Assembly: GCA_963833575.1 (NCBI GenBank)
Contig: CAWHXY010000008.1
Span: forward strand, 64,001 to 128,000
From: Candidatus Bathyarchaeota archaeon
GTDB lineage: Archaea > Thermoproteota > Bathyarchaeia > Bathyarchaeales > Bathycorpusculaceae
Direction: 5' to 3'
Length of the DNA stretch: 64,000 nt
Under the pieces are notes generated by a model, which was not told the DNA's origin, made no database searches, and was given only the letters and a program-made list of their open reading frames with translations. How positions within the stretch are numbered: position 1 is the first letter of the stretch; each line of letters starts with the position of its first letter. Shown in pieces: positions 16,163 to 30,700 of this stretch. The translations under genes were made by a program, and so were the position numbers.

Positions 16163-16325
16163 TTAGTTCTAATCTTGGAACAGCTAAAGAATAGGCTGTT
16201 CTTCTTTTGGAACACTGAAAGCTTATTCAGCATTGAACTTCCACCCTCCAGCAAATCAGGCGGGAGAACGCATTAAACGATTCCTCTTTTGGATACATTA
16301 CTGCATTTCCTATTTTTTTGTTAAA

Positions 16326-16390
16326 TTAGGGTTTTAATCGTTTGCAGGTTGCGGTTTGAAAAGGTTCGGAAGGTCTAAAAAGGTTATAGA
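16326..16390. repeat. Copy of dispersed motif TTAGGGTTTTAATCGTTTGCAGGTTG plus phased GGT repeats
   Basis: Matches 12032-12057 and 31478-31501. Confidence 0.55.
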
Positions 16391-16636
16391 CTGGGAAAAT
16401 ACTGAAGGTCCACAAGATCAAGCGTATTTTGCAACTAAATTAAAGCTTTTTGAGTTAATTTGGACCCTTCTCGAATTCATGTCTTTTTAGTGTTTTTGTT
16501 CAAAGCTTATGCTATCAGAAAATCAGATGGCAGAAAAGCAAGTCCAGTAACTCTCAAACCTTTCTTTCTTAGAGGATTTCTGATATCCCAGAAGAGTGAA
16601 CCTTCACCATTCCTACCCTCGTGAAACAAACAAAGC

Positions 16637-17254
16637 TTATGCGAAGCAACCTGCTCCAACTAAGATTACAAAAAAGAGTATAGCGAAGTAGAAACTTAGT
16701 TTGCCAAGTTTGTAGTATCGCAATTTTGTTCTAGTTTTCCTTGAAATTGAAAAAGTCTCACGAACATGATCTCTATACGCCTTGCTCAATAAATCATTGG
16801 GACTGCTATTGAAATAACTGGTCCATAGATCGAGCTTCTCATCTGAAATTTCCTTGAAATAAAAAAGAGACTGAGGCTCAAAGGTTTTCTTGCCGTCTTT
16901 AATCTCAGTTTTGTCTTCATTCCGAAACCTTTTGCCTTGTCTGCCGATTCCACCAAGAGATGCTTCCAAAAAAATAAATATTCCAAGAGCAACAAAGATT
17001 GCGAATCCAGCAAAAGAGATTGAAATCAAGTTAAAGTGAGAATTCAAAAGATTAATTTGAACTGATAACTTTAAGTTTGCGAAAACTGCGAATGCAGTGG
17101 CTGCAGTAATAGACAGAAACGCCATCGCCTCCAATATTCTGCCAGCTTTCGTATCCTCATGCTCATTAAGTTCGGTTATATGTTCAAACATTTCCGCGAC
17201 GATTTTGTATTTTTGTTGCAAATCGTCTTTATCGATAGTGCTCACAAAATTCAA
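16637..17254 (-). CDS. Pycsar-effector-like (PycTM/DUF5706) membrane protein
   Basis: N-terminal helix ending EDTKAGRIL, two TMs, SLFYFKEI motif, ISRKTRTKLRYY before a third TM; this is the characteristic DUF5706 layout. Confidence 0.75.
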   Translation of the reverse strand: MNFVSTIDKDDLQQKYKIVAEMFEHITELNEHEDTKAGRILEAMAFLSITAATAFAVFANLKLSVQINLLNSHFNLISISFAGFAIFVALGIFIFLEASLGGIGRQGKRFRNEDKTEIKDGKKTFEPQSLFYFKEISDEKLDLWTSYFNSSPNDLLSKAYRDHVRETFSISRKTRTKLRYYKLGKLSFYFAILFFVILVGAGCFA

Positions 17255-17495
17255 AATGCATCAATGTTATATTTAACATTTCCCAGAAACTCAAAGTACA
17301 AAACCAAACTTCTCGAATTCATTTTGATAATAACTTTCTGCTTCTCATAATTTTCCGTGTCATAAGAGAGGCCAATGTCAGAAAGAACTATTTTGACACA
17401 TTAATATATCAATCAGAACATCCCCTCTTATTGTTTTAAGGGAAACGTAAAAAAAGTATTCAGATTAGTAATTCACTGTTTGAAGTGTTACAACT

Positions 17496-17927
17496 ATGTT
17501 ACGTAAACCTTGGAAGCTATCCGTTAAAATCCTGATCTTTGATAACAATGGAAAATTTTTGTTGTTAAGACGGTCACTAAACTCAAAGGGAAATCCTGGT
17601 AAATGGGAGCCACCGGGAGGAAAAATTGATCAAGGTGAAACCTTTGAAACAGCCCTTATGCGCGAGATTGAAGAAGAGACTGGCTTGACCGCTTCAATTC
17701 AGCATGTTGCCGGAACATCTGAATCCGAATTATCTAAAGTAAAGATAGTTCACCTGATTTTAGAAGGAAAATTAGAATCAGGACAAGTACATATTAGCGA
17801 AGAACACATAGAATTTGAATGGATCAAACCTGAGGAACTCAACAACTTTGACATAGCAGATTGGTTTATTCCTTTCGCAGTTGAATACATTGAAAAGAAA
17901 GCGTCAAGCTTAACCAGAAAAACCTAA
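17496..17927 (+). CDS. Nudix hydrolase
   Basis: Intact Nudix box GGKIDQGETFETALMREIEEETGL. Confidence 0.95.
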   Translation: MLRKPWKLSVKILIFDNNGKFLLLRRSLNSKGNPGKWEPPGGKIDQGETFETALMREIEEETGLTASIQHVAGTSESELSKVKIVHLILEGKLESGQVHISEEHIEFEWIKPEELNNFDIADWFIPFAVEYIEKKASSLTRKT

Positions 17928-17970
17928 GTTAGACTTCAAATAATTGTTCCTACTGACAAGGGAAGATTAA

Positions 17971-20457
17971 GTGAATTCAACGAAAGAAGATCAAGCTCAA
18001 CTGCTAAACGAGCAGGTTAACCAGTACACAAAGTTATTTTCAAATTACAAATTATTTGCTGATATCTTAGTTCAAATATTTGAGAAAGCTTCAACAAAAT
18101 ATGCGCCTTTAGCAATAGTACAAGCTCGCCCGAAATCAATTTCAAGTTTTGCCGAAAAAATTTTACGGAAAAATAAGTACACTGACCCTCTTAATCAAAT
18201 AACTGATTTATGCGGTGCCAGAGTCATCACACATATTCCTGAAGAAGTCGAGGAAATAGGCAAATATATTGAAAATAATTTTAATGTCGATTTCAATAAC
18301 AGTGTTGATGTAAACCAGAGATTAAAGCCCACAGAATTTGGCTATCGATCCGTTCATTACGTTGTGCAATTCAAAGAGGACATTTTTCCCAATAAAGATG
18401 TTCCCGTAAAGATTCCCGAAGAACTATTTGGTTTAAAGGCAGAAATTCAAGTAAGAACAATCTTGGAGCATTCCTGGGCTGATTTCAGTCATGATTTGAG
18501 CTATAAAGGCTCTTTTAAGATTCCTCAAAAATGGGAACGTGAACTTGCCGGATTAGCTGCCTCACTTGAATCTGCAGATAAAACCTACTCCCGAGTTCAT
18601 AATGGCCTCCAAGTTTATGCTTCCAACTTTGGAGCTTACATGTCTACAGAGCAAATGCAAAATGAAATTAGCCTTCAAGAGTTAGTTTTAGAAAACGATC
18701 CCAATAACTTTGAAGTCGCTCACCGAATAGGAAAAATAGCTATAGTAATGGGTGATTGGCAAAAAGCCATAAATGTTCTCTCCAAGTTCGTCAAATCCGA
18801 TTATCATCCTTTGATTAGAGACCTTGGCGTTGCGCTTTGTACATTCAATAAAGACAATAAAGACAGCACAGAATTCTCTCAAGGTAGAAAGTTTTTAGAA
18901 ATTGCTTGTGCTCCTCCAAATGAAGACATCGATGCACTAACATTTTTAGCAGGTACCTACAGGGGGGTTGACGAAGATAAAGCACGCGAACTTTACCAGC
19001 AAGCTTTTGCTCTCGATTCCACTAATCCTTATGTGCTCGGCAATTATTTAGAATCTGAACTAATCTGTGGACTCGATGTTCCTGCGTTATCCTTGGTTAA
19101 TCCCTTAATTGAGCTGGCAATTAAGAGAAGCCAAAGTCAAGCTGAAGTTGGCGTAAATCTGCAATGGGTATTTTATGATATTGGCCGGTTCTACCTATTT
19201 TTAGGAAAACCCTACGAAAGTCTCAGCGCCTATGCAAAAGCGATACAGGTGAGCTTAAATGATTGGGTCATCGAAGCTGCGCTTAGATCTATTGATCGAC
19301 TTGCAGTTGTAAAAAGTCAATTGACTGGATATGAATGGGTAAAACGGCTGCTTCTAATTGGATTATCATGCAAGTTTCCTGAGAGTGTTGCAGGAAAAAC
19401 TGCATTAAACAAGGCTAAAAAATTAGCCTCAACTAGACATGAACGGCTTAGTGGCGCAATAGTTATTGTGGCCGGCGGAGTCAGCTCCGAAGTTGAACTT
19501 CAAATGTTAACGTACCAGGGCCTTATGTTGGAGGCTTTTTGGGACTTTAAAGGTACAATAATTTCTGGAGGTACAATCTCAGGCATTAGCGGATTAATAG
19601 GGCAAGTGCAAGAAAAATATGCGAGCACAATTAAGACAGTTGGTTACATTCCGAAACCAACCAAAGCAGCATTGATAGATAAACGCTACTGTCAAATTCG
19701 CTTCACTGAGGGTGAAAACTTTAGCCCAACAGAGCCTCTTCAGTATTGGATAGACCTTGTTGACTCAGGCATTAACTGTAATGATGTTAAGCTTTTGGGA
19801 ATAAATGGAGGAATCATATCTTCCATAGAATACAAAATAGCGTTGGCACTTGGAGCGAGCACAGCTATTATTGAGGATGGCAAAATGGAAAAAGAAACGC
19901 TGTTCTCAGATAAAAATTGGAATACTCTGAAGAATTTTGTTCCTATGCTTAATGATTCTTTGACAGCTTGGGCTTTTGTTCAGTCGGGCGCAAAAAAACT
20001 GGACCCAGCCAGCCGAGAACAACTAGGCCAAATTATCCACAAGAACTATCTAGATGCATCTTCACAAAAGAAAAGTCTTGACCCCTCACTGCAGAATTGG
20101 CACAATTTAAAAGATGATTTGAAGGAATCAAATTGCCAGCAAGCTGATCACATAATAGAAAAGCTCAATCGCATTAATTGTTCCACACGTTTAGTAACCG
20201 ACCGTGATATTTCACTTATGCAGTTCTCAAATAGTGAAGTAGAAACAATGGCGCAAATGGAGCACGCCCGATGGAATGTTGAACGCTTTCTTGATGGATG
20301 GCGAAAAGGGCCAAAAGATGTAAGCAGGAAAATCAGCCCCTATCTAGTTTCCTGGTCAGAACTACCGGAGGATATTAAAGACTATGATAGAGATGCTGTC
20401 AAAAAAATTCCTGAAGTTCTAGCAAACATGAACTTGGAAGTAAGGCGCACAAAATAA
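17971..20457 (+). CDS. RelA/SpoT-type alarmone synthetase domain + TPR-like region + SLOG-like domain + RyR repeats
   Basis: SYNTH motifs RPKSISSFAEKILRK, DLCGARV, GYRSVHY, EIQVRTILEHSWADFSHDLSYK; SLOG-like IISGGTISGI and NGGIISSIEYKIAL; RyR AQMEHARW..ER..DGW..G.KD...K.SPYLVSWSELPE..KDYDR; no HD hydrolase domain. Confidence 0.88.
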   Translation: MNSTKEDQAQLLNEQVNQYTKLFSNYKLFADILVQIFEKASTKYAPLAIVQARPKSISSFAEKILRKNKYTDPLNQITDLCGARVITHIPEEVEEIGKYIENNFNVDFNNSVDVNQRLKPTEFGYRSVHYVVQFKEDIFPNKDVPVKIPEELFGLKAEIQVRTILEHSWADFSHDLSYKGSFKIPQKWERELAGLAASLESADKTYSRVHNGLQVYASNFGAYMSTEQMQNEISLQELVLENDPNNFEVAHRIGKIAIVMGDWQKAINVLSKFVKSDYHPLIRDLGVALCTFNKDNKDSTEFSQGRKFLEIACAPPNEDIDALTFLAGTYRGVDEDKARELYQQAFALDSTNPYVLGNYLESELICGLDVPALSLVNPLIELAIKRSQSQAEVGVNLQWVFYDIGRFYLFLGKPYESLSAYAKAIQVSLNDWVIEAALRSIDRLAVVKSQLTGYEWVKRLLLIGLSCKFPESVAGKTALNKAKKLASTRHERLSGAIVIVAGGVSSEVELQMLTYQGLMLEAFWDFKGTIISGGTISGISGLIGQVQEKYASTIKTVGYIPKPTKAALIDKRYCQIRFTEGENFSPTEPLQYWIDLVDSGINCNDVKLLGINGGIISSIEYKIALALGASTAIIEDGKMEKETLFSDKNWNTLKNFVPMLNDSLTAWAFVQSGAKKLDPASREQLGQIIHKNYLDASSQKKSLDPSLQNWHNLKDDLKESNCQQADHIIEKLNRINCSTRLVTDRDISLMQFSNSEVETMAQMEHARWNVERFLDGWRKGPKDVSRKISPYLVSWSELPEDIKDYDRDAVKKIPEVLANMNLEVRRTK

Positions 20458-20659
20458 TGCGCTCGTGAACTGGATTAGATGACCCGTTTAAGCTTAATTT
20501 TCACGCAAAAACTAAGTTTTTTTTAGCTTAGCGTCGTTCATACATTTACAGTTGATTGAGAATAAAGGATTTTTCGAATCTTTAGTTACCTTAAATTCTT
20601 TAAATCGATAAAGTACTTAGGTATGTTACAGTGAGGTAAATAACAGAGGTATTTCCTAG

Positions 20660-21664
20660 ATGGGAAAAATTCGGGTATTCATTAGTTCTTCTTTAACTGA
20701 ACTTGAAAGCGAAAGGGAAATCGCTCAAGAGACTATTGCTCAACTAAACTTAGAGCCTGTAATGTTTGAAAGTCTTCCTGCAATGGACAAAACATTGGAA
20801 AACGCATATGTAGATGCAATAAAGGAAGCTCATATCTTTGTTTTAATTCTTTGGAAGGACCTGACAGAAGCGGTTGAAAGAGAATATAATGTAGCTAATG
20901 AATATGGGATCCCAATTCTAATGATAGTTAAAATTCCAACTTTCAGGGAAGCAAGAACTCAACGACTTGAAAATCTAATAAATATCGCGGCAAACCAGAA
21001 TCTACAGAGTAATAATCACATTGTTCCATTTCGCAAGAACTTTCGAACGCTTAGTCAACTTGAGAACGTGTTAAAAGAAGGAGTAATGAAACTTGTTTCT
21101 GACAGATTCACAGAACCAGTTTTAACAACAACTAACGTCGATCTAATCTTGGAGACTAATCTAAATATGGTCCAAAACGCTAGAAGAAGACTTCTTGTAG
21201 TTGCTAAAACACCAATACTTCTTTTTGGGCCGCGACCGTATAATTCACCGCACAAAAACTTTGCGAAAAACAAGTTCTATGACGCCTTAATTGCTTGGAT
21301 AGAGAATATGAAAAAAGATGAAAACAAAAAAATGCTCTATCTATATTCTGTTGAAGATACCTATAATGAAATGAAAGAAAACCAGCTTGAACAGTTTGTA
21401 AAAGTTAACGTAGAAAAATACAAGAAAATTGAAGAAGAAACAAACGGACGATTTGAACTCGGATCAATCCAAGAATTTCCAGGTCGCATATGTATTAGTG
21501 ACAATAATTTTGGAATATCATTTAGAGCGCCAAAAGGAAAAGTTGTTTATGTTAATCGTCAAGATGCAAGTTTTTCCTCAAATCTCTTTCAAGCTCTCCG
21601 TGATTGCCGAGGCTCTTCTGAAGCAACCTTGACTAATTTATTAAAGGAACTAAAACTGCAATAG
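20660..21664 (+). CDS. DUF4062 (TIR/NDT-like) domain protein with uncharacterised C-terminal alpha/beta domain
   Basis: RVFISSSLTELESERE...LEPVMFE...AVEREYNVA..GIPIL. Confidence 0.82.
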   Translation: MGKIRVFISSSLTELESEREIAQETIAQLNLEPVMFESLPAMDKTLENAYVDAIKEAHIFVLILWKDLTEAVEREYNVANEYGIPILMIVKIPTFREARTQRLENLINIAANQNLQSNNHIVPFRKNFRTLSQLENVLKEGVMKLVSDRFTEPVLTTTNVDLILETNLNMVQNARRRLLVVAKTPILLFGPRPYNSPHKNFAKNKFYDALIAWIENMKKDENKKMLYLYSVEDTYNEMKENQLEQFVKVNVEKYKKIEEETNGRFELGSIQEFPGRICISDNNFGISFRAPKGKVVYVNRQDASFSSNLFQALRDCRGSSEATLTNLLKELKLQ

Positions 21665-21901
21665 CGCACGCTATGTCTAGATGAGACAAACGATGGTTGA
21701 AAGAGTAGTTGCTTCTTTCTAAATTCAAAAGAACCTGCTGGTCGAATCCTTAATCAAGAAAGATTTAGATCGTAAAATTACATATAACTAAGCAATCGGT
21801 TGCATTGGCTTTCACTATTATAAAGTTTGTTGCAGAAAAATTAATGAAGATATTTATTGCAGCGTCGCGAGCTACTGGTAGATGAGGAGAGGGAGTGCTG
21901 G

Positions 21902-24900
21902 ATGAGTAAAATTAGGAGATTAATAGCTAAAGCTATGGTATTACTTTTTATTGCGTTGTTTATTTTTCCAATGCTAAATTCTTCCGTAACTGTACATGCA
22001 GCAGAGAATTACCAATACGTAACACAATGGGGCAGTTATGGGTCTGGACCCGGCCAATTCAATGAACCTCTTGGTGTTGCTGTAGACAGTTCAGGAAACG
22101 TCTACGTGGCAGATTGGGGATCTAATAATCGTGTTCAGAAGTTTACTAGTAACGGGGGGTTCATTCTATCGTGGGGAGGCACTGGGTCAGGTAATGGCCA
22201 ATTCAACAATCCTGGTCAGATTGCTGTTGACAGTTCAGGAAACGTCTACGTAGCTGATGCTGCTAATAATCGTGTTCAGAAATTCACTAGCAATGGCGCA
22301 TTCGTTTCATCGTTGGGAGGTTTCTTTAATCCTATCGGAATCGCTGTTGACAGTTCAGGAAACGTCTATGTTCTTGACTCATATAATGATCGGGTGGTAA
22401 AGTTTACTGGCAACGGTGTGTTAATTACATCATGGGGGACCTCTAGTGCAGGTTGGTGCGATGCTGTTGACAGTTCAGGAAACGTCTACGTAGTTGAGCC
22501 TTACATTAATCTTGTTGAAAAGTTCACTAGCACGGGTGTGTTCATTACATCATGGGGAGGCGGTGGTTCAGGTAATGGTCAATTCAGCAATCCGACTGGA
22601 ATTGCTACGGATAGTCAAGATAACGTCTACGTAACTGATACCTACAACCATCGAGTACAAAAGTTTACTAGTAGTGGCGTTTTCATTACTCAATGGAGCA
22701 TTGCAGGCTCTGGTTGGGGTGTTGCTGTTGACAGTTCAGGAAACGTCTACGTAACAGACTATAGCAATATTTGTGTACAAAAGTTCTCTATGCAAGGTAA
22801 CCCGAATCCTGCTCCGGCTGTAGCTTGGAGCCAAACTTACAACGGAATCAGTCTAAATGGTGCAAATTCGGTGGTTCAAACTAATGATGGTGGTTATGCT
22901 TTAACCGGCTCAGCAGACGTTGCAAACAATATTAGTACTACAATCTGGAAACCGTGGCTTATTAAGACGGACTCTAACGGCATGATGCTTTGGAACCAAA
23001 CCTACACCGAAGGGCTTGATTACATTGAACCATATTCACTAGCTAAAACTTCAGATGGCGGATATATGATACTTTGTGGTACAAATACTAATGTTGGCAA
23101 CCCTTGTTACAGGTTGATTAAAACTGATTCAAATGGCAATATGCTTTGGAATAAAACCTATGCAGTAAATCAGTTCGATGCGTTGGGTTCTGTCATCCAG
23201 ACGACTGACGGAGGATATGCCTTTATAGGAACAATGAGTCAACTTGGAAATTCAAATTCATACGCTATGCTTATCAAAACCGATTCCCAGGGCAACATGC
23301 TTTGGAATAAAACATACGGAGGTTTGTATTCCAATGAAGCAGATTCTTTTGTGCAAAACATTGATGGCGGTTACACGATAACAGGGGCTTCAAGTCCATC
23401 TGGAAATAATGAAGCTTGGCTTTTCAGAACTGATTTGAACGGAAATATTTTATGGAGCAAAACGTACGGAATGGGTTTGGATGCATCTTCAAACAGGCTC
23501 ATCTTGACAAGTGATGGTGGTTATGCTTTTGGGGGAACCACAGGCCCTAACTACTTTGGTACTCTTTGGAAGACAGATGCGAATGGAAATCAACAATGGA
23601 ACCAAACATATGTTGGAGCAAACTACTATGGAGTATTTTCTCTTTGTCAAACCAAAGATGGAGGATTTGCACTTATGGGTAGTCCAGGAAACGGTACAGC
23701 CCTTAATCTTCTTGTCAGAACAGACTCTTCTGGCAAAATGTTATGGGATCAATCATATTCTCAATACCTCTCAAACGCCCAGATTAACGCAATGATACTG
23801 ACAAATGATGGATGTTATGCTTTTGCAGGTTCAGTTGTGGATAATTCTGGCAACTCTAGTCCTTTCTTAATGAAGACAGATCCAGAACAAAACACTTCTA
23901 CTACACAAGTTTTACAAATAGGGAATCTGGTTGTAGGAAATCCTGCAAATTCGACTTGGAACTGCAAAGTAACTGACAACGCTACAGGAAATGTAATAAG
24001 CGAATTCACTCTTCCAGCTGCAGGAACAAGCGGTAGCTACACAAACACTGTCCAGTTAAGCAATGGCGGAAGTTACATCGTTTTTGAAGAACCACAACTC
24101 GGTTACCATACAAGTATGCAAATTAATGCCTCACAGGTTGATAGTTTTCAATTCACCGTCAATGTAAACGCAGGTGACAGTCTACAAGTCCTCTTTAATA
24201 ATACTGCCTTGGCTCCTGGATCGTTAGAATTGCCTCCGCCAAGTAGTATGAACTTTTCTATACCTCCTTTAACTCTAATTCCGATCCAAGCCGCATGGAA
24301 CCCAGACGCAAACAACGACGGTACGCTCGATCTCGTAGTCAACAAAACAATGGCGATAATCATCAACTTCACGGTACCAGTTAACCCAACTGATATAGTC
24401 AATCTCTCCGTTAAGTTTGATCAACAAGTATTCACAAAAACAGTTTACGGAGCAATTTTACAGGCAGATTCAATTATTCCTTTTTGCCCAATAACGCCAA
24501 AAAATCTTGGGAACAAAGCCCTCAACGGCACATATCAAATCAACAGTGCTTCTCCAATTAATTTTCCATCCTTGACCGTTAAGGTAAGACAAACTACCGA
24601 TTTACCTTTGGTCTATGGCTACTTTACAAGAAGCAACTACGGAACAGTATCGCAAACAGAATATTCACAAATGGCAAACACTTCAACTGTTTTCATAAAA
24701 GCAACATACCCGGTTACGAACGTTCCCGTCAATGAGAGTTATATCGGTTTAGCAGGCAACTCAAACAGTGGCGGTGGTTATTCTGGTGCAACAAAGGATC
24801 TATCGCTAGTCTTGGGTCCATACGCCAAATCCCATATGGGCCAATACACTAACGCCATTGGCATCGCAATTGAACCTGCTAGCTACTTCACCTACAATGG

Positions 24901-27160
24901 ATTAACGGGCGGTGCTGGATGGACTCCTAATCAAAATACCAAGGCTAGTTTGGTACTGGATGGCGGCTATACTGAAGCAGCTCATGAAGTAGGGCACTCG
25001 TTCGGATTATACATCGGAGCTGTTCCAGAGTACTACCTAATACCAGGTCTTGCTGGAACAAATGTCAGCGGGGTTTACCCTGACATTGATCAGTGGAGAA
25101 CAGGTCTGGACATCATGGATAGATCTAGTCAATCTGGAAACAATTGGGCAAGCACTGGCACATACAATCAATTGTTTAATTGGACCCGAGGAAACTTCAC
25201 TGACCCAGACATTCTCATAGCTAGCGGCATAATTTACAAGAACGGTACCGTTGACCTTTCCACTAGTTGGCTCGAAGTATCCCAAGGCATCCCAGACATT
25301 ATAGCACCTGGCAACTATTCACTTCAATTTTTAGCTGCCAATGGGACAGTTCTGGGTTCAATCACCTTTGACGCTCAAAGTCCTTTGAATTATGACGGTG
25401 CACCTTTCTGTTTTGCAACTGTTTATCCAAAAGGCACAAGCTACGTTAATGTTCTAAATACGGCTAATCAGGCCGCTCCACCAAAAACTCTTGCAACGGT
25501 TCAAGCAGAAGATATCGTAAAGCTAAACAACAGCGTCACGTTCGCTGAAACCGGATTACCCTTGGGCACCTCTTGGAGCGTGACTCTTGGTAGTAAAACT
25601 CTTTCCTCAACGAATTCTACTATCGCATTCACAGGTCTTGCTTATGGTAATTATGATTGGAATTCATCGACTGAAATTTCTGGTGGCGCTGGAATTAGAT
25701 ATGACGCTTCAGTTGCGTCGGGAACAATTGACGTGGAAGGCAATGTTTCCTCGACCATTGCTTACATTACCCAATATCAAGTATCCTTAGCAGTTGACCC
25801 TTCAGGTGCAGGAAGTGCTAATCCAGCCAGCGCCAACTACTATAATGTAGGTACTCAGATTCCAATTTCAGCAGCAGCCAATGATCAATATCAGTTTTTA
25901 GATTGGAGCTCAAATAGCCCATCCATAGTTTTAGCGAATGTCGCTTCGCCATCAACTTCAGCAACTATCAACGGCCCTGGCACAGTTACCTGCGCATTTG
26001 CTTCCACCATCGGCAACAGCGTGGCTTTTGCCGAAACAGGGTTGCCCTCTGGAAAACCTTGGAATGTTACTTTAGGAGGTCAGACGTTGTCTTCCACAAC
26101 TGGCGCGATCGTGTTCACTAATCTGGCTTCGGGAAGCTACAGTTGGAGCACGCCATCTATAATTTCTGGAAGTACAGGAACAAGATATGCAGCTTCAATC
26201 ACGTCAGGAACGTTAAACGTGGCGGGACAAACATCAACTAGCATTACATACACTACTCAATACCAAGTATCTTTCACAATGAACACAGTGGGGTCAGGCG
26301 TAATCAACCCAGCAACAGTCACCTTCTTTGATTCTGGTTCCAAAATCTCAATTTCCGCAACCCCAAAACCAGGCTTCACACTCTACATATGGTCTTCAAA
26401 CACACCTTCAATAACATTCACCAACAGCTCAGCAGCAACCACAACCGCAACCATAACCGGACCCGGCACTGTCACCGCCAACTTTGCCCTACTCGTCGGA
26501 GGTAACAAGCAGATCACCCTTACCGGAAGCAATAATGCGGTAATTATAACCGGCGGAAGTAACCAGATTAACGCGGTACAAGCCTCAGCTACAACTATTG
26601 TCAAAACCGGAGCAGGAAACAACATCATCAACTTAGGCAACGGCAATAATAAGGTGATAGAAACTGCAGATGGCAATGACATAATTTCAACGGGCAACGG
26701 CGACAATGTCCTATCTATTCTGGGAAACGGCAACAACCAAATCACAACAGGTAGCGGAAACGACGTCATCCAAATAACCGGAAACGGAAACAACATCATT
26801 AAAGCAGGTGACGGCGACAATCAAGTCACGGTTAAAGGCTATGGCAACAACCAAATTACAGCTGGGTCTGGAAGTGATGTCATTGTTGCAGGTGATGGAA
26901 ACAACATTATCAAAGCTGGTGATGGCAACAACAAAGTGACACTAGGAAAAGGCAATAACCTGGTCACAACTGGAACAGGTGGCGACGAAGTGACAGTTGG
27001 AAACGGAAACAACAACATTCAAACTGGAGCCGGAGATGATACCATCACCGTTGGCAAAGGCAACAACTACGTCGATGGAGGCGCTGATTACGACATCTGT
27101 TTGCACGGTACAGGGAATAACACGATACTGAACTGCGAAAAAGGAGTAATAGCAAAGTAA
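21902..27160 (+). CDS. Giant secreted protein: NHL propeller + second propeller + HExxH metallopeptidase-like domain + thermopsin-C/InlB-B-like repeats + RTX-like Gly/Asn repeats
   Basis: Signal peptide after MSKIRR; AVDSSGNVYVAD..NNRVQKF; QTxDGGY repeats; AAHEVGHSFGL; FAETGLPxGxxWxVTL; GxGNNxIxx nonapeptides. Confidence 0.85.
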   Translation: MSKIRRLIAKAMVLLFIALFIFPMLNSSVTVHAAENYQYVTQWGSYGSGPGQFNEPLGVAVDSSGNVYVADWGSNNRVQKFTSNGGFILSWGGTGSGNGQFNNPGQIAVDSSGNVYVADAANNRVQKFTSNGAFVSSLGGFFNPIGIAVDSSGNVYVLDSYNDRVVKFTGNGVLITSWGTSSAGWCDAVDSSGNVYVVEPYINLVEKFTSTGVFITSWGGGGSGNGQFSNPTGIATDSQDNVYVTDTYNHRVQKFTSSGVFITQWSIAGSGWGVAVDSSGNVYVTDYSNICVQKFSMQGNPNPAPAVAWSQTYNGISLNGANSVVQTNDGGYALTGSADVANNISTTIWKPWLIKTDSNGMMLWNQTYTEGLDYIEPYSLAKTSDGGYMILCGTNTNVGNPCYRLIKTDSNGNMLWNKTYAVNQFDALGSVIQTTDGGYAFIGTMSQLGNSNSYAMLIKTDSQGNMLWNKTYGGLYSNEADSFVQNIDGGYTITGASSPSGNNEAWLFRTDLNGNILWSKTYGMGLDASSNRLILTSDGGYAFGGTTGPNYFGTLWKTDANGNQQWNQTYVGANYYGVFSLCQTKDGGFALMGSPGNGTALNLLVRTDSSGKMLWDQSYSQYLSNAQINAMILTNDGCYAFAGSVVDNSGNSSPFLMKTDPEQNTSTTQVLQIGNLVVGNPANSTWNCKVTDNATGNVISEFTLPAAGTSGSYTNTVQLSNGGSYIVFEEPQLGYHTSMQINASQVDSFQFTVNVNAGDSLQVLFNNTALAPGSLELPPPSSMNFSIPPLTLIPIQAAWNPDANNDGTLDLVVNKTMAIIINFTVPVNPTDIVNLSVKFDQQVFTKTVYGAILQADSIIPFCPITPKNLGNKALNGTYQINSASPINFPSLTVKVRQTTDLPLVYGYFTRSNYGTVSQTEYSQMANTSTVFIKATYPVTNVPVNESYIGLAGNSNSGGGYSGATKDLSLVLGPYAKSHMGQYTNAIGIAIEPASYFTYNGLTGGAGWTPNQNTKASLVLDGGYTEAAHEVGHSFGLYIGAVPEYYLIPGLAGTNVSGVYPDIDQWRTGLDIMDRSSQSGNNWASTGTYNQLFNWTRGNFTDPDILIASGIIYKNGTVDLSTSWLEVSQGIPDIIAPGNYSLQFLAANGTVLGSITFDAQSPLNYDGAPFCFATVYPKGTSYVNVLNTANQAAPPKTLATVQAEDIVKLNNSVTFAETGLPLGTSWSVTLGSKTLSSTNSTIAFTGLAYGNYDWNSSTEISGGAGIRYDASVASGTIDVEGNVSSTIAYITQYQVSLAVDPSGAGSANPASANYYNVGTQIPISAAANDQYQFLDWSSNSPSIVLANVASPSTSATINGPGTVTCAFASTIGNSVAFAETGLPSGKPWNVTLGGQTLSSTTGAIVFTNLASGSYSWSTPSIISGSTGTRYAASITSGTLNVAGQTSTSITYTTQYQVSFTMNTVGSGVINPATVTFFDSGSKISISATPKPGFTLYIWSSNTPSITFTNSSAATTTATITGPGTVTANFALLVGGNKQITLTGSNNAVIITGGSNQINAVQASATTIVKTGAGNNIINLGNGNNKVIETADGNDIISTGNGDNVLSILGNGNNQITTGSGNDVIQITGNGNNIIKAGDGDNQVTVKGYGNNQITAGSGSDVIVAGDGNNIIKAGDGNNKVTLGKGNNLVTTGTGGDEVTVGNGNNNIQTGAGDDTITVGKGNNYVDGGADYDICLHGTGNNTILNCEKGVIAK
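22085..22749 (+). repeat. Five identical 20-mers (GACAGTTCAGGAAACGTCTA) in the NHL blades
   Basis: Copies start at 22085, 22229, 22349, 22469, 22730. Confidence 0.85.
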
Positions 27161-27181: not shown

Positions 27182-27628
27182 ATGAATTTGGAGGTGAAAA
27201 TAGAAATGAAAAGAAATATGATCATAATTGGAACAACCCTCATATTGATATCAATGCTGGCTTCCATAGCCCTGGCAGCGGCGTCAAACGTCTACTACCC
27301 CGACTTGCAGATTCAACTAAAAGGAGTAATCTGGACCATACCTACTGATATTAACCTAGATGGCAAGCCCGATTTTAACAGTTACCTATTGATAAGAAGC
27401 TCCGTTGTGGCTACTGTTTTCGTCGACACAAACAATGACGGACTGATTGACACTACCGTTGTTGTCCATCCGCTTGTAATCCTAATAGATAAGAATGACA
27501 TCTACCTCGTTTTCTGCCCAAGCAGTCTTCCAACAGGCGTGGCGCTCAAGACTTTGGTGACAGCAAACCTCCAAGGTGGAGACTCAATCGTCGCAACAGG
27601 TCCAGGATTCACATATCGAATCAAATAG
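27182..27628 (+). CDS. Small secreted protein with two DxNxDG Ca-binding-like loops
   Basis: Signal peptide (start probably MKRNM, after GGAGGTG); DINLDGKPD and DTNNDGLID. Confidence 0.75.
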   Translation: MNLEVKIEMKRNMIIIGTTLILISMLASIALAAASNVYYPDLQIQLKGVIWTIPTDINLDGKPDFNSYLLIRSSVVATVFVDTNNDGLIDTTVVVHPLVILIDKNDIYLVFCPSSLPTGVALKTLVTANLQGGDSIVATGPGFTYRIK

Positions 27629-27706: not shown

Positions 27707-30700
27707 TTGGATTCGTTAAGTCACACTGTATCAGGAAAAGGATTGTTTATGGGCACTATTCGCGCAGAAAAGGAATACAAGTGGCTGGAAGCAGCGAAAG
27801 CTCATGAACAAAAGGCAAAAACAGAAACAAACAAAAATGTCGCCGCAGAATCTTTTAAAAAAATAGGATTCTGGTACAGTTTAGCCTCAAGGCAAGCTCA
27901 CAGCCCAGAGGAATTCAAGAAACTTAGGAAACTATCAATCGAAGCTTACGAAACGGCCGCCAAACTTTTTCGTGAGAGTACAGCTACAGAAAAAGAAGGA
28001 AGAAGCGCAGATTGTCTAGTAATGGCCGACTACACGAGATCGTGGCTCGCTCCTAACTCTGTTCAGAAATGCGAAATAATTCACAAATGTATCTCCAATG
28101 GGCAAAATGCTTTAGAAGCGTTCAAAAAGATAACCGAGAATTTGAACTACGCCAGAACATGCAACCTTCTAGCCCAGTGCATGTTTGACTTAGTTTCTAT
28201 TACTTCTCAAACAGAAGAAAAACTCGAAGTTGCCAAAAAAGGATTACTTTACGTAATGGATGCAGTCTCAGTTTTGTCTAATTTTGACGAAAAAGGTGAG
28301 TTGATCACTTCCTTCTCCTTGGCTAGTCTTCTCAGTTGGCACATTGCAAACCTTAGCGATCAGGAAGAGGAGAGAAAAGATTTAACGAAGAAATGTTTGA
28401 GTTATGCAACTGATGCTGCAACTCTTGCGAACCAGACAGTTAACCCTTATTCTTGCATCATGTCTTTATGGGCAAAAGCGTTGTCTTCTTTCTATTTCGG
28501 AGAAAAAACCCAGGATTCCTCAAAATATACGCAAAAAATGTTCAAGCTAAGCTCAATCATTGAAGACAATTACTTCAAGGGTGTCGCGTGCTATCTGGAG
28601 GCTTACATTAAAAATTGGAGCGTCGAGGAAGAAGAAGACATTGATAAGAAAAAGAAAGCTTACAACGAAATTATTACCTCTTCAGAAGCAGCAATACAAT
28701 ACTACCAATTGGTCTGTCAGGATTCGGATATCGCAGAAGCCTATTTGTTTTATGCAGAAAGCTACTTATCGTTGGCAAACGAAATCGCCATCTCCATAAA
28801 AGATAAAAAAGATTTTTCCGAAAAATCTGTTAGGATTGGAGAGGAAGGGTTGAAGTTTGCCGTTAGTTCCGGGTCAGTTGATGCAATGCTTTCTACCGTT
28901 CACGCCCTTAGCAAAGCTTATCATTATCGTTCTAAACTCGAACCCGGAATCGATAAGAAACTTGAACTGTTGAAAAACGCTTTAGGCTACAGAGAAGAAA
29001 GCCTAAGGATTGGAGAACAAGCTTTTTCGTCCAACTTCTGGATTTTAGGCGTTGCCATGATCTATGAAGCATTAATAAAAGTGGACTTGGCCAAACTTGA
29101 AGAAAATCAAATCACCAAAGCCACCTACTTAAAAGAAGCAGTTAGAGATATGGAAAGCGGCGTATCTTACAGTAACAAATGGCTCAAAACCTGCTCCGTA
29201 CCCTCACTTGTAACAGTCGCAGCAAACTATGAAGATAGGTTCGGGGGAATGCTTGCTGAACAATACCAACAAACTTGCCAAAAAGAGGATCTGGTCAACG
29301 CAAACAAAACCTACAGCGAAGCCGCAACAAAGTTCAAAGAAGTTGATTTACCCAGTCGAGTAGCAGAATCCTATTGGAAAATTGCTATAAACCTCGATCT
29401 ATTAAGCGAGAACGCTCAAGCTGCGGAGAACTTTGAGAAAGCCTTTTCCTGGTACAAAACAGCGGCTCGAAAAATCGACCAGTTCAACGACTTCTATATC
29501 GATTATGCGTCCTATATGAAAGCATGGAGCGAAATCGAAAATGCCAAATATGCACATAACAATGATAAATACTCAATCGCTGCGAGCCATTATCAAGAAA
29601 CTTCCAATCTTCTCAAACAATCGAAATCCTGGAACTACTTGTCTTCAAACTTTCTTGCTTGGTCACTTCTGGAGCAAGCGGAAGACCTAAGCAGAAAAGA
29701 CAATTGCCGAGAATCTATAATAGCATTCAAGAAATCTGTAGAAACCTTTCGAGAATCCGCGCGAATCTTGCATAATGAATTGGGCAGAATCAACAAGGTT
29801 GATGAACAAAATCTAGTCAAGAGACTAATACACGCATCAAACAATAGGGTCGAATATAGTAATGGAAGAATCGCAATTGAAGAAGCGATAATTTCTGACA
29901 AGCAAGGCGACCACGACAATAGCTCCCGAAAATATGAATCTGCAGCAGAAATCTTTAGAAAAATTGTCCAGATCGATCCGCAGCAAACGGGAAAAGAAGC
30001 TGAACCACTCTTCTATCTCTGCCAAGCATGGCAAAAAATGACTTTGGCGGAGGCCAGGAGCTCTCCCATATTGTACGAGGAAGCAGCAGACCTATTCAAG
30101 CTTGCAAACAAATTCTCGACCAAAGAATCAACTAGCCTATTAGCGTTGGGACACAGCAACTTTTGCAAAGCAATGGAAGCCGGAGCAGAATTTGAAATGA
30201 CAAGAAGCACAACCATGTACGAACAAACAACTAAACATATGAGTTCAGCAGCTAACTATTATCTACGCGCTGGTTTTGAATCGGCCTCGGATTTCACAAA
30301 AGCCACTCAACGCTTATTCGACGCATACGTATTCATGGACACGGCTAAACGTGAAAAAGACCCGCAGAGAGAAGCAAAGTACTATTTGATGGCGGAAAAA
30401 GTGTTGCAAATATCTGCTGAATGTTTTACTAAAGCAGGGCACATTGAAAAAAATGATCAAGTCCAACGTCTACTTAGGAAAGTCAGAGATGAGAAGGAAA
30501 TAGTACTTTCCTTGAATGAAATCTTTAATGCTTCAAGTATTGCGTCGTCAACAGCGAGTTTCGCGACTATAGGACCAAACGAGGAAGAGGCGGTTGGTTT
30601 AGAAAGGTTCGAGCATGGAGACATACAAGCAAAGTTAGATCAAAAAGAAATTGAAACTAACTTGGAAAGTGCCATAAGTCTTGAATTAAAGATTGTAAAC

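What the first reader, a model, noticed from the sequence alone, without database searches (positions are those of the whole stretch)
16637..21664. Candidate alarmone-based nucleotide-signalling defence system in an archaeon: PycTM-like effector, Nudix, RelA/SpoT-TPR-SLOG-RyR and DUF4062
Seen: four adjacent genes that all handle or respond to nucleotides. A DUF5706/PycTM-like membrane protein is divergent (241-bp gap) from an intact Nudix hydrolase, which lies 43 bp from a synthetase-only RelA/SpoT homologue, followed by a DUF4062 protein. Known: PycTM is the membrane effector of Pycsar and normally sits beside a PycC cyclase; SLOG is the signal-binding domain of Thoeris ThsA; DUF4062 has a TIR/NDT-like fold; some Nudix enzymes degrade (p)ppGpp; archaea lack the canonical stringent response. 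Inference: the cluster has writer/eraser/effector logic like CBASS or Pycsar, but with an RSH as the writer. In model A the RSH makes (p)ppNpp that triggers PycTM and/or DUF4062, and Nudix erases it. In model B a TIR-like enzyme makes an NAD-derived signal read by SLOG, which switches on a toxic synthetase. I do not recognise this combination as a named system.
Basis: partly seen in the sequence, partly recalled or inferred. Interest (0 to 1): 0.9.

Follow-up and report, generated by a model that had tools for sequence, protein, structure and literature searches.

The report
TIR-linked SLOG-gated alarmone synthetase with Nudix
An archaeal accessory gene cluster pairs a Nudix hydrolase with a large RelA/SpoT-type enzyme carrying a signal-sensing SLOG domain, next to TIR-like genes, and this uncharacterised pairing recurs in many bacteria and archaea and looks like an antiviral signalling system with a new kind of effector.

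Summary
All four genes lie at the stated coordinates, with the stated 241-bp and 43-bp gaps and the stated domains.

In 81 other loci that encode the same 828-aa RelA/SpoT-TPR-SLOG-RyR protein:
- The conserved partner is the Nudix gene. It occurs in 47 of 81 loci and is directly adjacent on the same strand in 43.
- TIR proteins (31 of 81) or DUF4062 proteins (18 of 81) occur in 42 of 81 loci.
- A 2TM-TrkA_N-RyR channel-like protein occurs in 24 of 81.
- The PycTM-like gene recurs in only 2 of 81, so it is an accessory gene.

The genome has exactly one hit each to RelA_SpoT, RyR, TIR_2 and DUF4062, and all four fall within 13.4 kb.

A confident structure model shows a SLOG fold of the LOG, TRPM2 and ThsA kind, followed by a RyR repeat.

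My best reading, at confidence 0.5, is a Thoeris-like system. TIR-like enzymes make a signal, the SLOG domain senses it and switches on the synthetase, and Nudix keeps the product in check.

The full-length gene was found in 1 of 41 sampled genomes of the genus and 1 of 401 of the phylum, so it is an accessory gene. I found no description of this system in the literature I could search. I rate it a new variant of a known kind, interest about 0.7.

The parts
16637..17254 (-). PycTM-like (DUF5706 family) membrane protein, 205 aa, with 3 hydrophobic segments. A lineage-specific accessory and candidate pore-forming effector.
   Evidence: PADLOC PycTM at E 6.4e-9. 19 of 51 relatives match PF18967. 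Hydrophobic segments start at residues 40, 72 and 181. Homologues lie beside an RSH gene in L003 and L037 only. Synteny with L003 ends 35 bp beyond its stop codon.
17255..17495 (.). 241-bp divergent intergenic region between the PycTM-like gene and the Nudix gene. Presumed promoter region; this is inference only.
   Evidence: Sequence read. The bacterial-type promoter scan gave no more sites than shuffles, and archaeal promoters are not covered by that tool.
17496..17927 (+). Nudix hydrolase of the MutT/NudG type, 143 aa. The conserved partner of the RSH.
   Evidence: PF00293 at E 1.8e-23. Nearest solved relatives are 3grn, a MutT-related protein (4.5e-25), NudI and a CTP pyrophosphohydrolase. 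Best NCBIfam match is the pyrimidine (d)NTP diphosphatase, below its cut-off. Nudix-box residues G41 G42 K43 E48 E57 E60 E61 are invariant in alignment A5. Adjacent on the same strand in 43 of 81 loci.
17971..20457 (+). 828-aa RelA/SpoT synthetase-TPR-SLOG-RyR protein, the centre of the system.
   Evidence: There are at least 764 homologues, many at about 50% identity over the full length, from bacteria and archaea. M1 is invariant in A1, which supports the GTG start.
18127..18510 (+). RelA_SpoT synthetase domain (residues 53-180).
   Evidence: PF04607 at E 3e-19. R53, K55, S59, E62, K63, D79, G82, R84, E158, Q160, T163 and H167 are invariant in 23 homologues. Nearest solved relatives are the small alarmone synthetases RelQ/RelP.
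18685..19254 (+). TPR repeat region (residues about 239-428).
   Evidence: Several TPR Pfam families at E 3e-6 to 1e-3, each below its curated cut-off except TPR_2.
19450..19992 (+). SLOG domain of the LSDAT_prok type (residues about 494-674). Predicted ligand sensor.
   Evidence: PF18171 in 55 of 59 family members. AF2 pLDDT 91.1. VIA-align: TM1055 Z 16.9, LOG 14.2, TRPM2 domain 13.5, DprA 12.4, ThsA 10.0-10.1. Foldseek also returns TRPM2, TRPM4 and TRPM8.
20206..20445 (+). RyR domain (residues 746-825).
   Evidence: PF02026 at E 4e-13. Profile against PDB ryanodine-receptor repeats: 4e-23. Foldseek best matches are RyR3 Repeat12 crystal structures, some solved with ATP, ADP or AMP-PCP.
20660..21664 (+). 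DUF4062 (TIR/N-glycosidase-like) N-terminal domain plus a PLD-fold C-terminal domain, 334 aa. Candidate signal maker or sensor.
   Evidence: PF13271 at E 4e-12. AF2 pLDDT 84.6. Foldseek: N-terminal part resembles BcmB, DNPH1 and TIR domains; C-terminal part resembles PLD, NucT and the TrmBL2 C-domain. No invariant histidine among 26 homologues, so the PLD-like domain is probably not catalytic. The orthologue lies beside the RSH in L003.
21857..27160 (+). 1767-aa secreted NHL/RTX repeat protein. Probably a passenger and not part of the mechanism.
   Evidence: Pfam NHL, RTX and Flg_new_2. Signal-peptide-like N-terminus. A homologue occurs only in L003, at 68% identity against 90-95% for its neighbours.
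27182..27628 (+). 148-aa protein with one N-terminal hydrophobic segment and no family match. Probably a passenger.
   Evidence: A homologue occurs only in L003 (69% identity).
27707..31372 (+). 1221-aa cytoplasmic protein with a C-terminal TIR domain (nt 30962-31321). Likely the signal-generating sensor of the system.
   Evidence: TIR_2 at E 7.2e-19. It is the only TIR_2 hit in the genome. No hydrophobic segments. The catalytic-position Glu is invariant in 39 aligned TIR domains that include this one. Its TIR domain is 43-56% identical to TIR domains of genes in the RSH loci L025, L014, L011, L030 and L002.

Best explanation
This is a Thoeris-like, TIR-dependent nucleotide-signalling conflict system whose effector is a regulated RelA/SpoT-type pyrophosphokinase.

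Shown by the analyses:
- The conserved core is a two-gene unit, a MutT-type Nudix hydrolase and an 828-aa protein. That protein has an intact small-alarmone-synthetase-like catalytic domain, then TPR repeats, a SLOG domain and a RyR domain.
- TIR-family or DUF4062 proteins are its most frequent additional neighbours.

Inferred:
- The TIR-like proteins are the 1221-aa TIR protein at 27707 and perhaps the DUF4062/PLD-like protein at 20660. They detect an invader through their large non-catalytic parts and convert NAD into an ADP-ribose-derived signal.
- The SLOG domain binds this signal, as the SLOG domains of ThsA and TRPM2 bind ADPR-type ligands. Binding releases the synthetase from autoinhibition by the TPR/SLOG/RyR half.
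- The synthetase then transfers pyrophosphate from ATP to a purine nucleotide, giving a (pp)pApp- or (p)ppGpp-type product, or to tRNA 3' ends as some toxic RSH enzymes do. This stops growth.
- The co-transcribed Nudix enzyme hydrolyses the product (or the signal) at a low rate. This prevents self-poisoning and resets the system.
- The PycTM-like membrane protein is an optional extra effector in this lineage. The 2TM-TrkA_N-RyR channel-like protein may fill that role in other lineages.
For: 1. Nudix occurs in 47 of 81 RSH loci. It is immediately upstream on the same strand in 33 and immediately downstream in 10. Among the 50 loci with at least 500 bp on both sides, 34 have it adjacent.
2. TIR occurs in 31 of 81 loci, DUF4062 in 18 of 81, and one or the other in 42 of 81. 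Among the 50 loci with at least 4 kb of flank, 31 have one. In 31 loci the gene lies within 600 bp of the RSH.
3. Of the 39 TIR domains checked, 37 match Pfam TIR_2 and 15 match ThsB_TIR. One Glu column is invariant.
4. In L002, from a Dehalococcoidales genome, the order is TIR (5948-7534), Nudix (7553-7963), RSH (from 8001), with gaps of 18 and 37 bp.
5. In the window's genome the single TIR_2, DUF4062, RyR and RelA_SpoT hits all fall within 13.4 kb.
6. The window's TIR domain is 43-56% identical to RSH-linked TIR domains elsewhere.
7. The SLOG fold matches TRPM2 at Z 13.5 and ThsA at Z 10. Its glycine-rich motifs are conserved.
8. The synthetase catalytic motifs are invariant and the Nudix box is invariant.
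9. Distribution is patchy: the full-length gene is in 1 of 41 sampled genus members, 1 of 401 sampled phylum members and 2 of 401 Chloroflexota. Relatives across bacteria and archaea are still about 50% identical.
10. The Nudix enzyme is of the MutT/NudI/CTP-pyrophosphohydrolase type, not the ADP-ribose pyrophosphatase type. This fits a nucleoside-polyphosphate substrate.
11. At least one of Nudix, a second RyR protein, TIR, DUF4062 or PycTM-like is present in 72 of 81 loci. All 9 loci without any have under 800 bp of flank on at least one side.
Against: - No biochemical or genetic data exist. The direction of signalling (TIR to SLOG to RSH) is inferred by analogy only.
- In the window the TIR gene is 7.2 kb from the RSH, behind a 5.3-kb surface-protein gene, so it is not adjacent.
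- 19 of the 50 loci with at least 4 kb of flank show no TIR or DUF4062 gene. A TIR partner is therefore either not obligatory or is encoded further away.
- The TIR protein matches no ThsB model in PADLOC at E <= 0.001, only a SAVED_TIR model over 80 residues.
- TIR and STAND genes also cluster in defence islands for reasons unrelated to function.
- The nearest solved RSH relatives are housekeeping RelQ/RelP enzymes. No solved toxic RSH appeared at E <= 0.01.
- The role of the RyR domain is unexplained.
- The window protein itself scores only E 0.04 for the Pfam SLOG model.
Confidence: 0.5

Rival explanations
1. Alarmone as second messenger. The RSH is a signal writer, not the killing enzyme. 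Its product gates membrane effectors: the PycTM-like protein here and the 2TM-TrkA_N-RyR channel-like protein elsewhere. Nudix erases the message. The TPR-SLOG part senses infection or an upstream TIR signal.
For: - A PycTM-like gene lies next to the RSH in the window, L003 and L037.
- In L037 it arrived as a 2-kb insertion directly downstream of an RSH gene. The backbone is otherwise 99.4-99.9% identical to L004. Its DNA is 81% identical to the window's PycTM region, against 64% for the RSH.
- No class III cyclase (PF00211) was found in the genome, so the PycTM-like protein has no canonical Pycsar partner.
- A second protein carrying the same RyR module lies beside the RSH in 24 of 81 loci. 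15 of these have two or more predicted TM segments, and 6 of 7 tested have a TrkA_N domain.
- Titles of the matched RyR repeat structures show complexes with ATP, ADP or AMP-PCP.
Against: - The PycTM-like gene is in only 2 of 81 other loci.
- Of the 81 loci, 25 carry a PycTM-like gene or a second RyR protein and 56 show neither, so the RSH must work without them in most lineages. Many contigs are short, which weakens this point.
- The PycTM-like protein has no RyR or other recognisable ligand-binding domain.
- No alarmone-gated pore is known (from my own knowledge).
Confidence: 0.2
2. A self-contained toxin-antitoxin-like pair. The RSH is a toxic synthetase and Nudix is an enzymatic antitoxin that degrades its product, like the small alarmone hydrolase antitoxin of toxSAS modules. 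The TIR, DUF4062 and PycTM genes are separate defence genes that merely share an island.
For: - Nudix-RSH adjacency is very tight and widely conserved (43 of 81 loci adjacent, gaps typically about 40 bp).
- 18 of 81 loci show Nudix as the only recognised partner.
- Passages of bioRxiv 10.1101/575399 describe an alarmone hydrolase acting as a type IV antitoxin of toxSAS.
Against: - The protein has 828 aa with a conserved SLOG sensor and a RyR domain, unlike single-domain toxSAS.
- TIR/DUF4062 genes lie within 600 bp in 31 loci and belong to a shared TIR subfamily.
- The only TIR and the only DUF4062 gene of the genome lie in this locus.
Confidence: 0.15
3. A physiological, non-defence second-messenger module, for example stress or ion-homeostasis control. 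An alarmone-type nucleotide would regulate a TrkA_N/RCK-type channel, by analogy with c-di-AMP control of potassium transport.
For: - 2TM-TrkA_N-RyR channel-like genes are adjacent in 24 of 81 loci.
- The nearest solved RSH relatives are housekeeping RelQ/RelP enzymes.
- The window contains no classical defence genes such as restriction or CRISPR genes among those I scanned.
Against: - Distribution is extremely patchy: 1 of 41 in the genus, 1 of 401 in the phylum, 2 of 401 in Chloroflexota.
- The RSH is associated with TIR, DUF4062-STAND-TPR and WD40 proteins.
- The window's genome has no TrkA_N-RyR partner; its only RyR hit is the RSH itself.
Confidence: 0.1

Closest known systems
Thoeris (ThsB TIR sensor plus ThsA SLOG-bearing effector)
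   Same: - A TIR-domain protein with the conserved catalytic-position Glu.
- A separate protein in which a SLOG domain is fused to an enzymatic effector domain. The SLOG model aligns to ThsA SLOG at Z 10.
- 15 of 39 RSH-linked TIR domains match the ThsB_TIR model.
- Accessory, patchy distribution.
   Different: - The effector domain is a RelA/SpoT synthetase, not SIR2, Macro-TM, caspase-like, SLATT and so on. The passages I read of bioRxiv 10.64898/2025.12.03.692087 list Thoeris types up to IX and mention no RelA, Nudix or RyR.
- The SLOG is of the LSDAT/TRPM type, with TPR and RyR domains around it.
- A conserved Nudix gene is added.
- TIR partners are often fused to STAND NTPase-TPR or WD40.
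- In the window the TIR gene is 7.2 kb away.
toxSAS toxin-antitoxin modules (FaRel, CapRel, PhRel and others)
   Same: A synthetase-only RSH is encoded next to a small conserved partner gene. One described antitoxin class is an enzyme that degrades the toxin's product (passages of bioRxiv 10.1101/575399).
   Different: - toxSAS are small single-domain proteins. This one has 828 aa with sensor domains.
- The partner is a Nudix hydrolase, not an SAH or a protein antitoxin.
- No solved toxSAS appeared among sequence matches at E <= 0.01.
Pycsar (PycC cyclase plus PycTM effector)
   Same: The 205-aa membrane protein belongs to the PycTM/DUF5706 family.
   Different: There is no PycC-type cyclase next to it or anywhere in the genome. 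The neighbouring nucleotide enzyme is an RSH.
TRPM2 channel (N-terminal SLOG/MHR1-2 plus C-terminal NUDT9H Nudix) and the ryanodine-receptor Repeat12
   Same: The SLOG model aligns to TRPM2 at Z 13.3-13.5 and to other TRPM channels. The Pfam family is named 'SLOG in TRPM, prokaryote'. SLOG and Nudix occur together, as in TRPM2. The RyR domain matches RyR repeats at E 4e-23.
   Different: These are soluble prokaryotic proteins. Nudix is a separate gene of MutT type, not ADPR-pyrophosphatase type. There is no channel in the window, although channel-like RyR proteins are neighbours elsewhere.
Computationally predicted TIR-SLOG-2TM (SLATT) nucleotide networks (Burroughs et al. 2015, NAR)
   Same: General logic: a TIR-class enzyme makes a nucleotide signal, SLOG senses it, and 2TM or enzymatic effectors act, with Nudix as a processing enzyme. 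I saw this only as summarised in passages of PMC9503650 and PMC7159879.
   Different: The 2015 paper is not held. I could not check whether it already describes the RSH-TPR-SLOG-RyR architecture or its Nudix partner, and it may. No experimental work on this architecture turned up in my searches.

Membership tests
RelA/SpoT homologue (RSH) synthetase | RelA_SpoT nucleotidyltransferase domain with conserved catalytic motifs | tested here: met
   PF04607 at E 3e-19, above its cut-off. R53, K55, S59, K63, D79, G82, R84, E158, Q160, T163 and H167 are invariant in 23 homologues. That these residues are the catalytic motifs is recalled knowledge.
Long RSH (Rel/RelA/SpoT stringent factors) | HD hydrolase domain and TGS/ACT regulatory domains | tested here: not met
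   The Pfam scan at E <= 0.01 shows only RelA_SpoT, TPR families and RyR.
toxSAS toxin-antitoxin | Small single-domain RSH toxin | tested here: not met
   828 aa with TPR, SLOG and RyR domains.
toxSAS toxin-antitoxin | Conserved adjacent small partner gene | tested here: met
   Nudix is adjacent on the same strand in 43 of 81 loci. The partner family (Nudix) is not one I know to be described for toxSAS.
toxSAS toxin-antitoxin | Toxicity neutralised by the partner | not testable with these tools
   Needs expression assays.
Thoeris | TIR-domain protein with catalytic Glu encoded with the effector | tested here: inconclusive
   A TIR_2 protein is present and the Glu is conserved, but it lies 7.2 kb downstream in the window. 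It is directly adjacent in other loci, for example L002, L011, L014 and L025.
Thoeris | Effector carrying a signal-binding domain (SLOG in type I) | tested here: met
   SLOG fold at Z 10-16.9, including ThsA 7uxs and 7uxt. LSDAT_prok in 55 of 59 relatives.
Thoeris | Effector module of a described type (SIR2, Macro-TM, caspase-like, DUF2270, SLATT, CMP hydrolase and others) | tested here: not met
   The effector domain is a RelA/SpoT synthetase. The described types are as listed in the passages of bioRxiv 10.64898/2025.12.03.692087 that I read.
Thoeris | TIR-made ADPR-derived signal and phage protection | not testable with these tools
   Needs LC-MS and infection assays.
Pycsar | PycTM-family effector | tested here: met
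   PADLOC PDLC02363 at E 6.4e-9 over 3-150 of 154 positions. 19 of 51 relatives match PF18967. The window protein itself does not reach the Pfam model.
Pycsar | Adjacent PycC pyrimidine cyclase (class III cyclase fold) | tested here: not met
   No PF00211 match in the whole genome (94% complete), while 4 of the 14 control genomes matched. None among the window ORFs I scanned.
Nudix hydrolase | Nudix box GX5EX7REUXEEXGU | tested here: met
   PF00293 at E 1.8e-23. G41, G42, E48, E57, E60 and E61 are invariant and R56 is present in 36 of 42 copies.
SLOG superfamily (LSDAT_prok) | SLOG Rossmannoid fold with glycine-rich nucleotide-binding loops | tested here: met
   G33, G59, G65 and G144 are invariant in A2.
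DUF4062 (TIR/N-glycosidase-like) | PF13271 match and a flavodoxin-like, TIR-class fold | tested here: met
   E 4e-12, above the cut-off. Foldseek matches BcmB, DNPH1 and RPP1 TIR.

The most novel reading that the evidence does not exclude
This would be a two-tier immune signalling cascade. A TIR-made NAD-derived signal is read by the SLOG domain of the RSH. The RSH converts it into an alarmone-type nucleotide, which acts as a second immune messenger and not simply as a poison. This messenger opens membrane effectors, namely the PycTM-like pore here and RyR-domain-bearing 2TM-RCK channels elsewhere. The RyR domain is the receptor for the messenger, and Nudix is the built-in eraser. That would make (p)ppNpp-type nucleotides an immune messenger class in archaea and bacteria. 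It would also place the SLOG+Nudix pair of TRPM2 and the nucleotide-binding RyR repeat together in one prokaryotic ancestral system.
Probability: 0.2. Interest if true: 0.9.

Novelty: new variant of a known kind. Interest (0 to 1): 0.7.

Why it matters
If the reading is right, this is a widespread but untested family of TIR/SLOG immune systems. There are at least 764 homologues, in many bacterial phyla and in archaea. Its output is a regulated alarmone-type synthetase held in check by a Nudix enzyme. That links two fields that have been studied separately: stringent-response-type nucleotides and TIR/NAD immune signalling.

It would also give a function to RSH enzymes in archaea, where (p)ppGpp synthetases are said to be rare and the alarmone was not detected in model species (passages of PMC10249747).

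The locus carries prokaryotic versions of two animal channel modules side by side, together with a Nudix gene: the TRPM-type SLOG and the ryanodine-receptor repeat. This makes the ligand-binding roles of these modules directly testable on small soluble proteins.

The recurrent 2TM-TrkA_N-RyR neighbour is a candidate nucleotide-gated channel effector.

Tried and rejected
- **RSH-Nudix binding:** Complex prediction on the whole RSH (A1) with Nudix (A5) gave no verdict (score 0.00, controls not run). It says nothing either way.
- **Expression:** The look-up of sequencing runs listed no RNA holder.
- **Empty site in relatives:** I searched 41 genus genomes with the left flank (13067-16600) and the right flank (31400-35500). 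Both flanks belong to multi-copy families (PQQ propellers, surface proteins) and match at 64-85% in many places. No clean empty site could be defined. The left flank of L003 has no real counterpart in the genome.
- **Promoter and terminator scan:** no more sites than in shuffles, and the scan is not designed for archaea.
- **First clustering of neighbours:** single-linkage BLAST merged Nudix with RyR proteins (cluster 0, '63 loci'). I dropped that figure and use the phmmer/HMM count of 47 of 81.
- **Unbiased Pfam tally of other neighbours:** I took 114 unclassified ORFs of at least 130 aa within 2.5 kb and scanned 111 of them. I left out three rows by hand: the two PycTM-like ORFs and the L003 NHL protein. 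The tally was dominated by WD40 families (8 of 111) and showed no further common partner among the 25 families listed.
- **ESM Atlas search with the N-terminal 1080 residues of the TIR protein:** only unnamed archaeal clusters came back.
- **PADLOC:** the RSH hits PDC-S33 and the Nudix hits PDC-S07, both candidate models, at the domain level only. A search found no paper holding 'PDC-S33'. Passages of PMC12988326 mention PDC-S07 once, without describing it.
- **Literature:** searches found no description of an RSH-SLOG-RyR/Nudix system. Burroughs et al. 2015 could not be read. Table S1 of the 2025 Thoeris preprint lists genes associated with TIR genes and might include this architecture.
- **Limits of my own methods:** ORF calls in the loci are my own (at least 70 aa, first start codon). 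The TM calls use a crude hydropathy rule, not a trained predictor.

Full report
**What is there**

The four ORFs named in the finding exist exactly as described.
- A 205-aa membrane protein lies on the minus strand at 16637-17254.
- After a 241-bp divergent gap comes a 143-aa Nudix hydrolase (17496-17927).
- 43 bp further on is an 828-aa protein (17971-20457).
- 202 bp after that is a 334-aa DUF4062 protein (20660-21664).

Pfam, NCBIfam and PADLOC confirm the domains.
- Nudix: E 1.8e-23.
- RSH protein: RelA_SpoT (E 3e-19, no HD hydrolase domain), TPR repeats and RyR (E 4e-13).
- DUF4062: E 4e-12.
- The membrane protein hits the PADLOC PycTM model at E 6.4e-9 but not Pfam PF18967.

The PycTM assignment rests partly on relatives. 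Six of its nine close homologues carry PF18967 precomputed, one of them from a Bathyarchaeia assembly. Among 51 relatives drawn match PF18967. It is a divergent member of that family.

The host is an archaeon. The archaeal SSU model scores 1486 bits over its full length.

**The SLOG claim**

The window protein reaches only E 0.04 against LSDAT_prok. I aligned residues 470-828 with 58 homologues taken from the fetched loci (A2).
- 55 of the 59 sequences match LSDAT_prok and all 59 match RyR.
- The AlphaFold2 model of this half is confident: pLDDT 91.1, pTM 0.89.
- An all-against-representatives structure search put SLOG-superfamily proteins at the top: TM1055 Z 16.9, MCP 16.2, LOG 14.2, a TRPM2 domain 13.5, DprA 12.4, ThsA 10.0-10.1, ShosA and YpsA 10.0. 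These cover model residues 25-205.
- Foldseek returned TRPM2, TRPM4 and TRPM8, and for the C-terminal part ryanodine-receptor Repeat12 structures, several solved with ATP, ADP or AMP-PCP.

- The synthetase motifs are invariant in 23 homologues.
- The nearest solved relatives are the small alarmone synthetases RelQ and RelP.

**The other proteins**

- The Nudix enzyme is closest to MutT-related, NudI and CTP-pyrophosphohydrolase enzymes.
- The DUF4062 protein model (pLDDT 84.6) has two domains. The N-terminal domain has a flavodoxin-like fold resembling CMP N-glycosidase BcmB, DNPH1 and TIR domains. The C-terminal domain has a phospholipase-D fold resembling NucT, PLD3, F13 and the TrmBL2 C-domain.
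- No histidine is invariant among 26 homologues, so the PLD-like domain is probably a binding module and not an enzyme.

**A missed component**

All seven ORFs from 17496 to 31372 run in the same direction. The last is a 1221-aa cytoplasmic protein at 27707-31372 with a C-terminal TIR_2 domain (E 7.2e-19; no hydrophobic segments).

Between it and the DUF4062 gene lie a 1767-aa secreted NHL/RTX protein and a 148-aa protein. Both look like passengers.
- Among the 81 other loci they have homologues only in L003.
- There they are 68-69% identical, while the neighbouring genes are 90-95% identical.

Whole-genome family searches give exactly one hit each for RelA_SpoT, RyR, TIR_2 and DUF4062, all inside window 17971-31372. 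By my own rough arithmetic, two further singletons falling this close to the RSH in 2.75 Mb has a chance of the order of 1e-4 or less.

**Recurrence elsewhere**

The RSH architecture is common in metagenomes. At least 764 proteins match, many at about 50% identity over the full length. They carry names from Altiarchaeales, Chloroflexota, Proteobacteria, Planctomycetes, Omnitrophica and Eisenbacteria assemblies.

I fetched one genome locus (L002) and 80 metagenome loci (L003-L082). That scan kept only the best 80 of 527 confirmed relatives. I called ORFs myself. Counts are out of these 81 loci.

- **Nudix:** 47 loci. It is immediately upstream on the same strand in 33, immediately downstream in 10 and further away in 4. 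Of the 50 loci with at least 500 bp on both sides, 34 have it adjacent.
- **TIR:** 31 loci. **DUF4062:** 18 loci. One or the other: 42 loci; both: 7. Among the 50 loci with at least 4 kb of flank, 31 have one. In 31 loci the gene is within 600 bp of the RSH.
- **Checks on my TIR model:** of the 39 TIR domains checked (38 from the loci plus the window's), 37 match Pfam TIR_2 and 15 match ThsB_TIR. One glutamate column is invariant across all 39.
- **Architecture of the partners:** many DUF4062 and TIR partners are fused to STAND NTPase-TPR or WD40 modules.
- **A compact operon:** in L002 the order is TIR, Nudix, RSH, with gaps of 18 and 37 bp.
- **A shared TIR subfamily:** the window's TIR domain is 43-56% identical to TIR domains in these loci. 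This argues for a dedicated TIR subfamily and against random island neighbours.

**A further partner: RyR-bearing channel-like proteins**

A second protein carrying the same helical-plus-RyR module lies beside the RSH in 24 loci.
- 15 of these proteins have two or more N-terminal hydrophobic segments.
- Six of the seven I scanned have a TrkA_N (RCK) domain.
- They therefore resemble 2TM-RCK channels with an added RyR domain.

The window's genome has none.

At least one of Nudix, second RyR protein, TIR, DUF4062 or PycTM-like is present in 72 of 81 loci. Each of the nine loci without any has under 800 bp of flank on at least one side.

**The PycTM-like gene**

It recurs in only two loci.
- L003 is a 93%-identical relative with the same gene order. 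Its synteny with the window ends 35 bp beyond the PycTM stop codon, so the gene lies at the edge of the shared block.
- L037 is more informative. L037 and L004 share a backbone that is 99.4-99.9% identical and carries an RSH-KaiC fusion. L037 has an extra 2.0 kb directly downstream of the RSH, with a RyR-only ORF and the PycTM-like gene.
- That PycTM DNA is 81% identical to the window's, against 64% for the RSH.

The gene has therefore landed next to RSH genes more than once, in different positions. That suggests a real but optional functional tie.

Matching 'longest contig' lengths and sources hint at one more PycTM-RSH contig and four more contigs that carry both the RSH and the 334-aa DUF4062 protein. 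In those four the RSH is 80, 77, 64 and 55% identical to the window's. This is inference only.

No class III cyclase was found in the genome, so the PycTM-like protein has no Pycsar partner.

**Distribution**

- The full-length RSH was found in 1 of 41 sampled genomes of the genus. One other genome has only a 366-aa RSH.
- It was found in 1 of 401 sampled genomes of the phylum. Four others have 329-371-aa RSH proteins that match only the synthetase domain.
- It was found in 2 of 401 sampled Chloroflexota.

This is the pattern of a horizontally moving accessory gene.

**Mechanism**

1. TIR-class proteins with large sensor parts make an NAD-derived signal.
2. The SLOG domain of the RSH reads the signal and the synthetase is switched on.
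3. The MutT-type Nudix hydrolase limits or resets the output.

Shown: the architecture, the intact catalytic motifs, the folds and the gene associations. Inferred: the identity of the signal, the direction of signalling, the product of the synthetase and the substrate of Nudix.

Most loci have no membrane partner. I therefore take the RSH to be the terminal effector and the membrane proteins to be add-ons (confidence 0.5).

The rivals are:
- a cascade in which the RSH product gates the membrane proteins (0.2);
- a self-contained RSH-Nudix toxin-antitoxin pair in a defence island (0.15);
- a physiological messenger module (0.1).

**Evidence against my reading**

- The window's TIR gene is 7.2 kb from the RSH.
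- 19 of the 50 loci with at least 4 kb of flank lack TIR and DUF4062.
- The TIR protein hits no ThsB model in PADLOC at E <= 0.001.
- The closest solved RSH enzymes are housekeeping ones.

**Comparison with known systems, and novelty**

The locus shares the TIR-plus-SLOG-effector design of Thoeris but fails the test of having a described effector type. It shares the RSH-plus-small-partner design of toxSAS modules but is not a small single-domain toxin. It contains a PycTM-family protein but no cyclase, so it is not Pycsar.

The general TIR-SLOG-2TM-Nudix logic was predicted computationally by Burroughs et al. 2015. I know this only from how later papers summarise it (passages of PMC9503650, and PMC7159879). 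I could not read the 2015 paper, and it may already list this architecture.

Full-text searches found no description or experiment on an RSH-SLOG-RyR/Nudix system. The passages I read of the 2025 preprint on new Thoeris types mention no RelA, Nudix or RyR, and I did not see its supplements.

I rate the finding a new variant of a known kind, with interest about 0.7.

Noticed in passing
L011:235-2187, L013:3416-5233, L020:621-3611, L044:3682-5436, L047:4436-6229, L055:6432-8453 and others: Proteins of about 580-680 aa lie directly beside the RSH in 24 of 81 loci. They have two N-terminal hydrophobic segments, a TrkA_N (RCK) domain and a C-terminal RyR module homologous to that of the RSH. They resemble 2TM-RCK channels with a RyR domain. 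No PADLOC match for the one tested.
   Followed up: partly
L004:3550-6873, L005:5989-9312, L037:3-2528; proteins P0008-P0010: A sub-branch of the RSH family (59-61% identical to the window's) carries an extra C-terminal KaiC/RecA-like ATPase domain (PF06745), giving about 1055 aa.
   Followed up: no
L035, L049, L054, L057, L059, L061, L065, L066, L070, L072, L077, L080: RSH variants end with a stop codon after about residue 660-680 and so lack the RyR domain (12 loci). In L054, L061, L065 and L070 a RyR-bearing ORF lies upstream; it shows two RyR matches in L061, L065 and L070, while L054's fragment shows one.
   Followed up: partly
L037:2716-4716 versus L004:7045-7060: Two metagenome contigs 99.4-99.9% identical differ by a 2.0-kb insertion that carries a RyR-only ORF and the PycTM-like gene. 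The RyR-only ORF is 69-73% identical in DNA to the 3' ends of RSH genes, as if it were a remnant of another RSH locus.
   Followed up: partly
window 21857-27160 and 27182-27628: The secreted NHL/RTX giant protein and the small protein after it are only 68-69% identical to their L003 counterparts, while flanking genes are 90-95% identical. The L003 giant protein is also shorter, 1408 aa. These look like fast-evolving surface proteins sitting inside the gene row.
   Followed up: no
window 13095-14604 versus G000:C4:17203-18712: The MFS transporter gene left of the locus has a 91%-identical second copy on another contig of the same genome.
   Followed up: no
G552:C10:447548-449994 (L093, L094): In one Chloroflexota genome the RSH homologue is split into two overlapping ORFs of 628 and 410 aa. 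This is either a frameshift or a genuine split.
   Followed up: no
L085-L088 (G264, G077, G305, G001): Four archaeal genomes of the same phylum encode short (329-371 aa) RSH proteins that are 32-37% identical to the synthetase domain only. This looks like a separate archaeal small-RSH family that I did not examine.
   Followed up: no
window 46022-47206, 48317-50632, 54017-56227: A TackOD1 (thaumarchaeal output domain) protein and two multi-PAS histidine kinases lie further along the window. They are unrelated to the finding.
   Followed up: no
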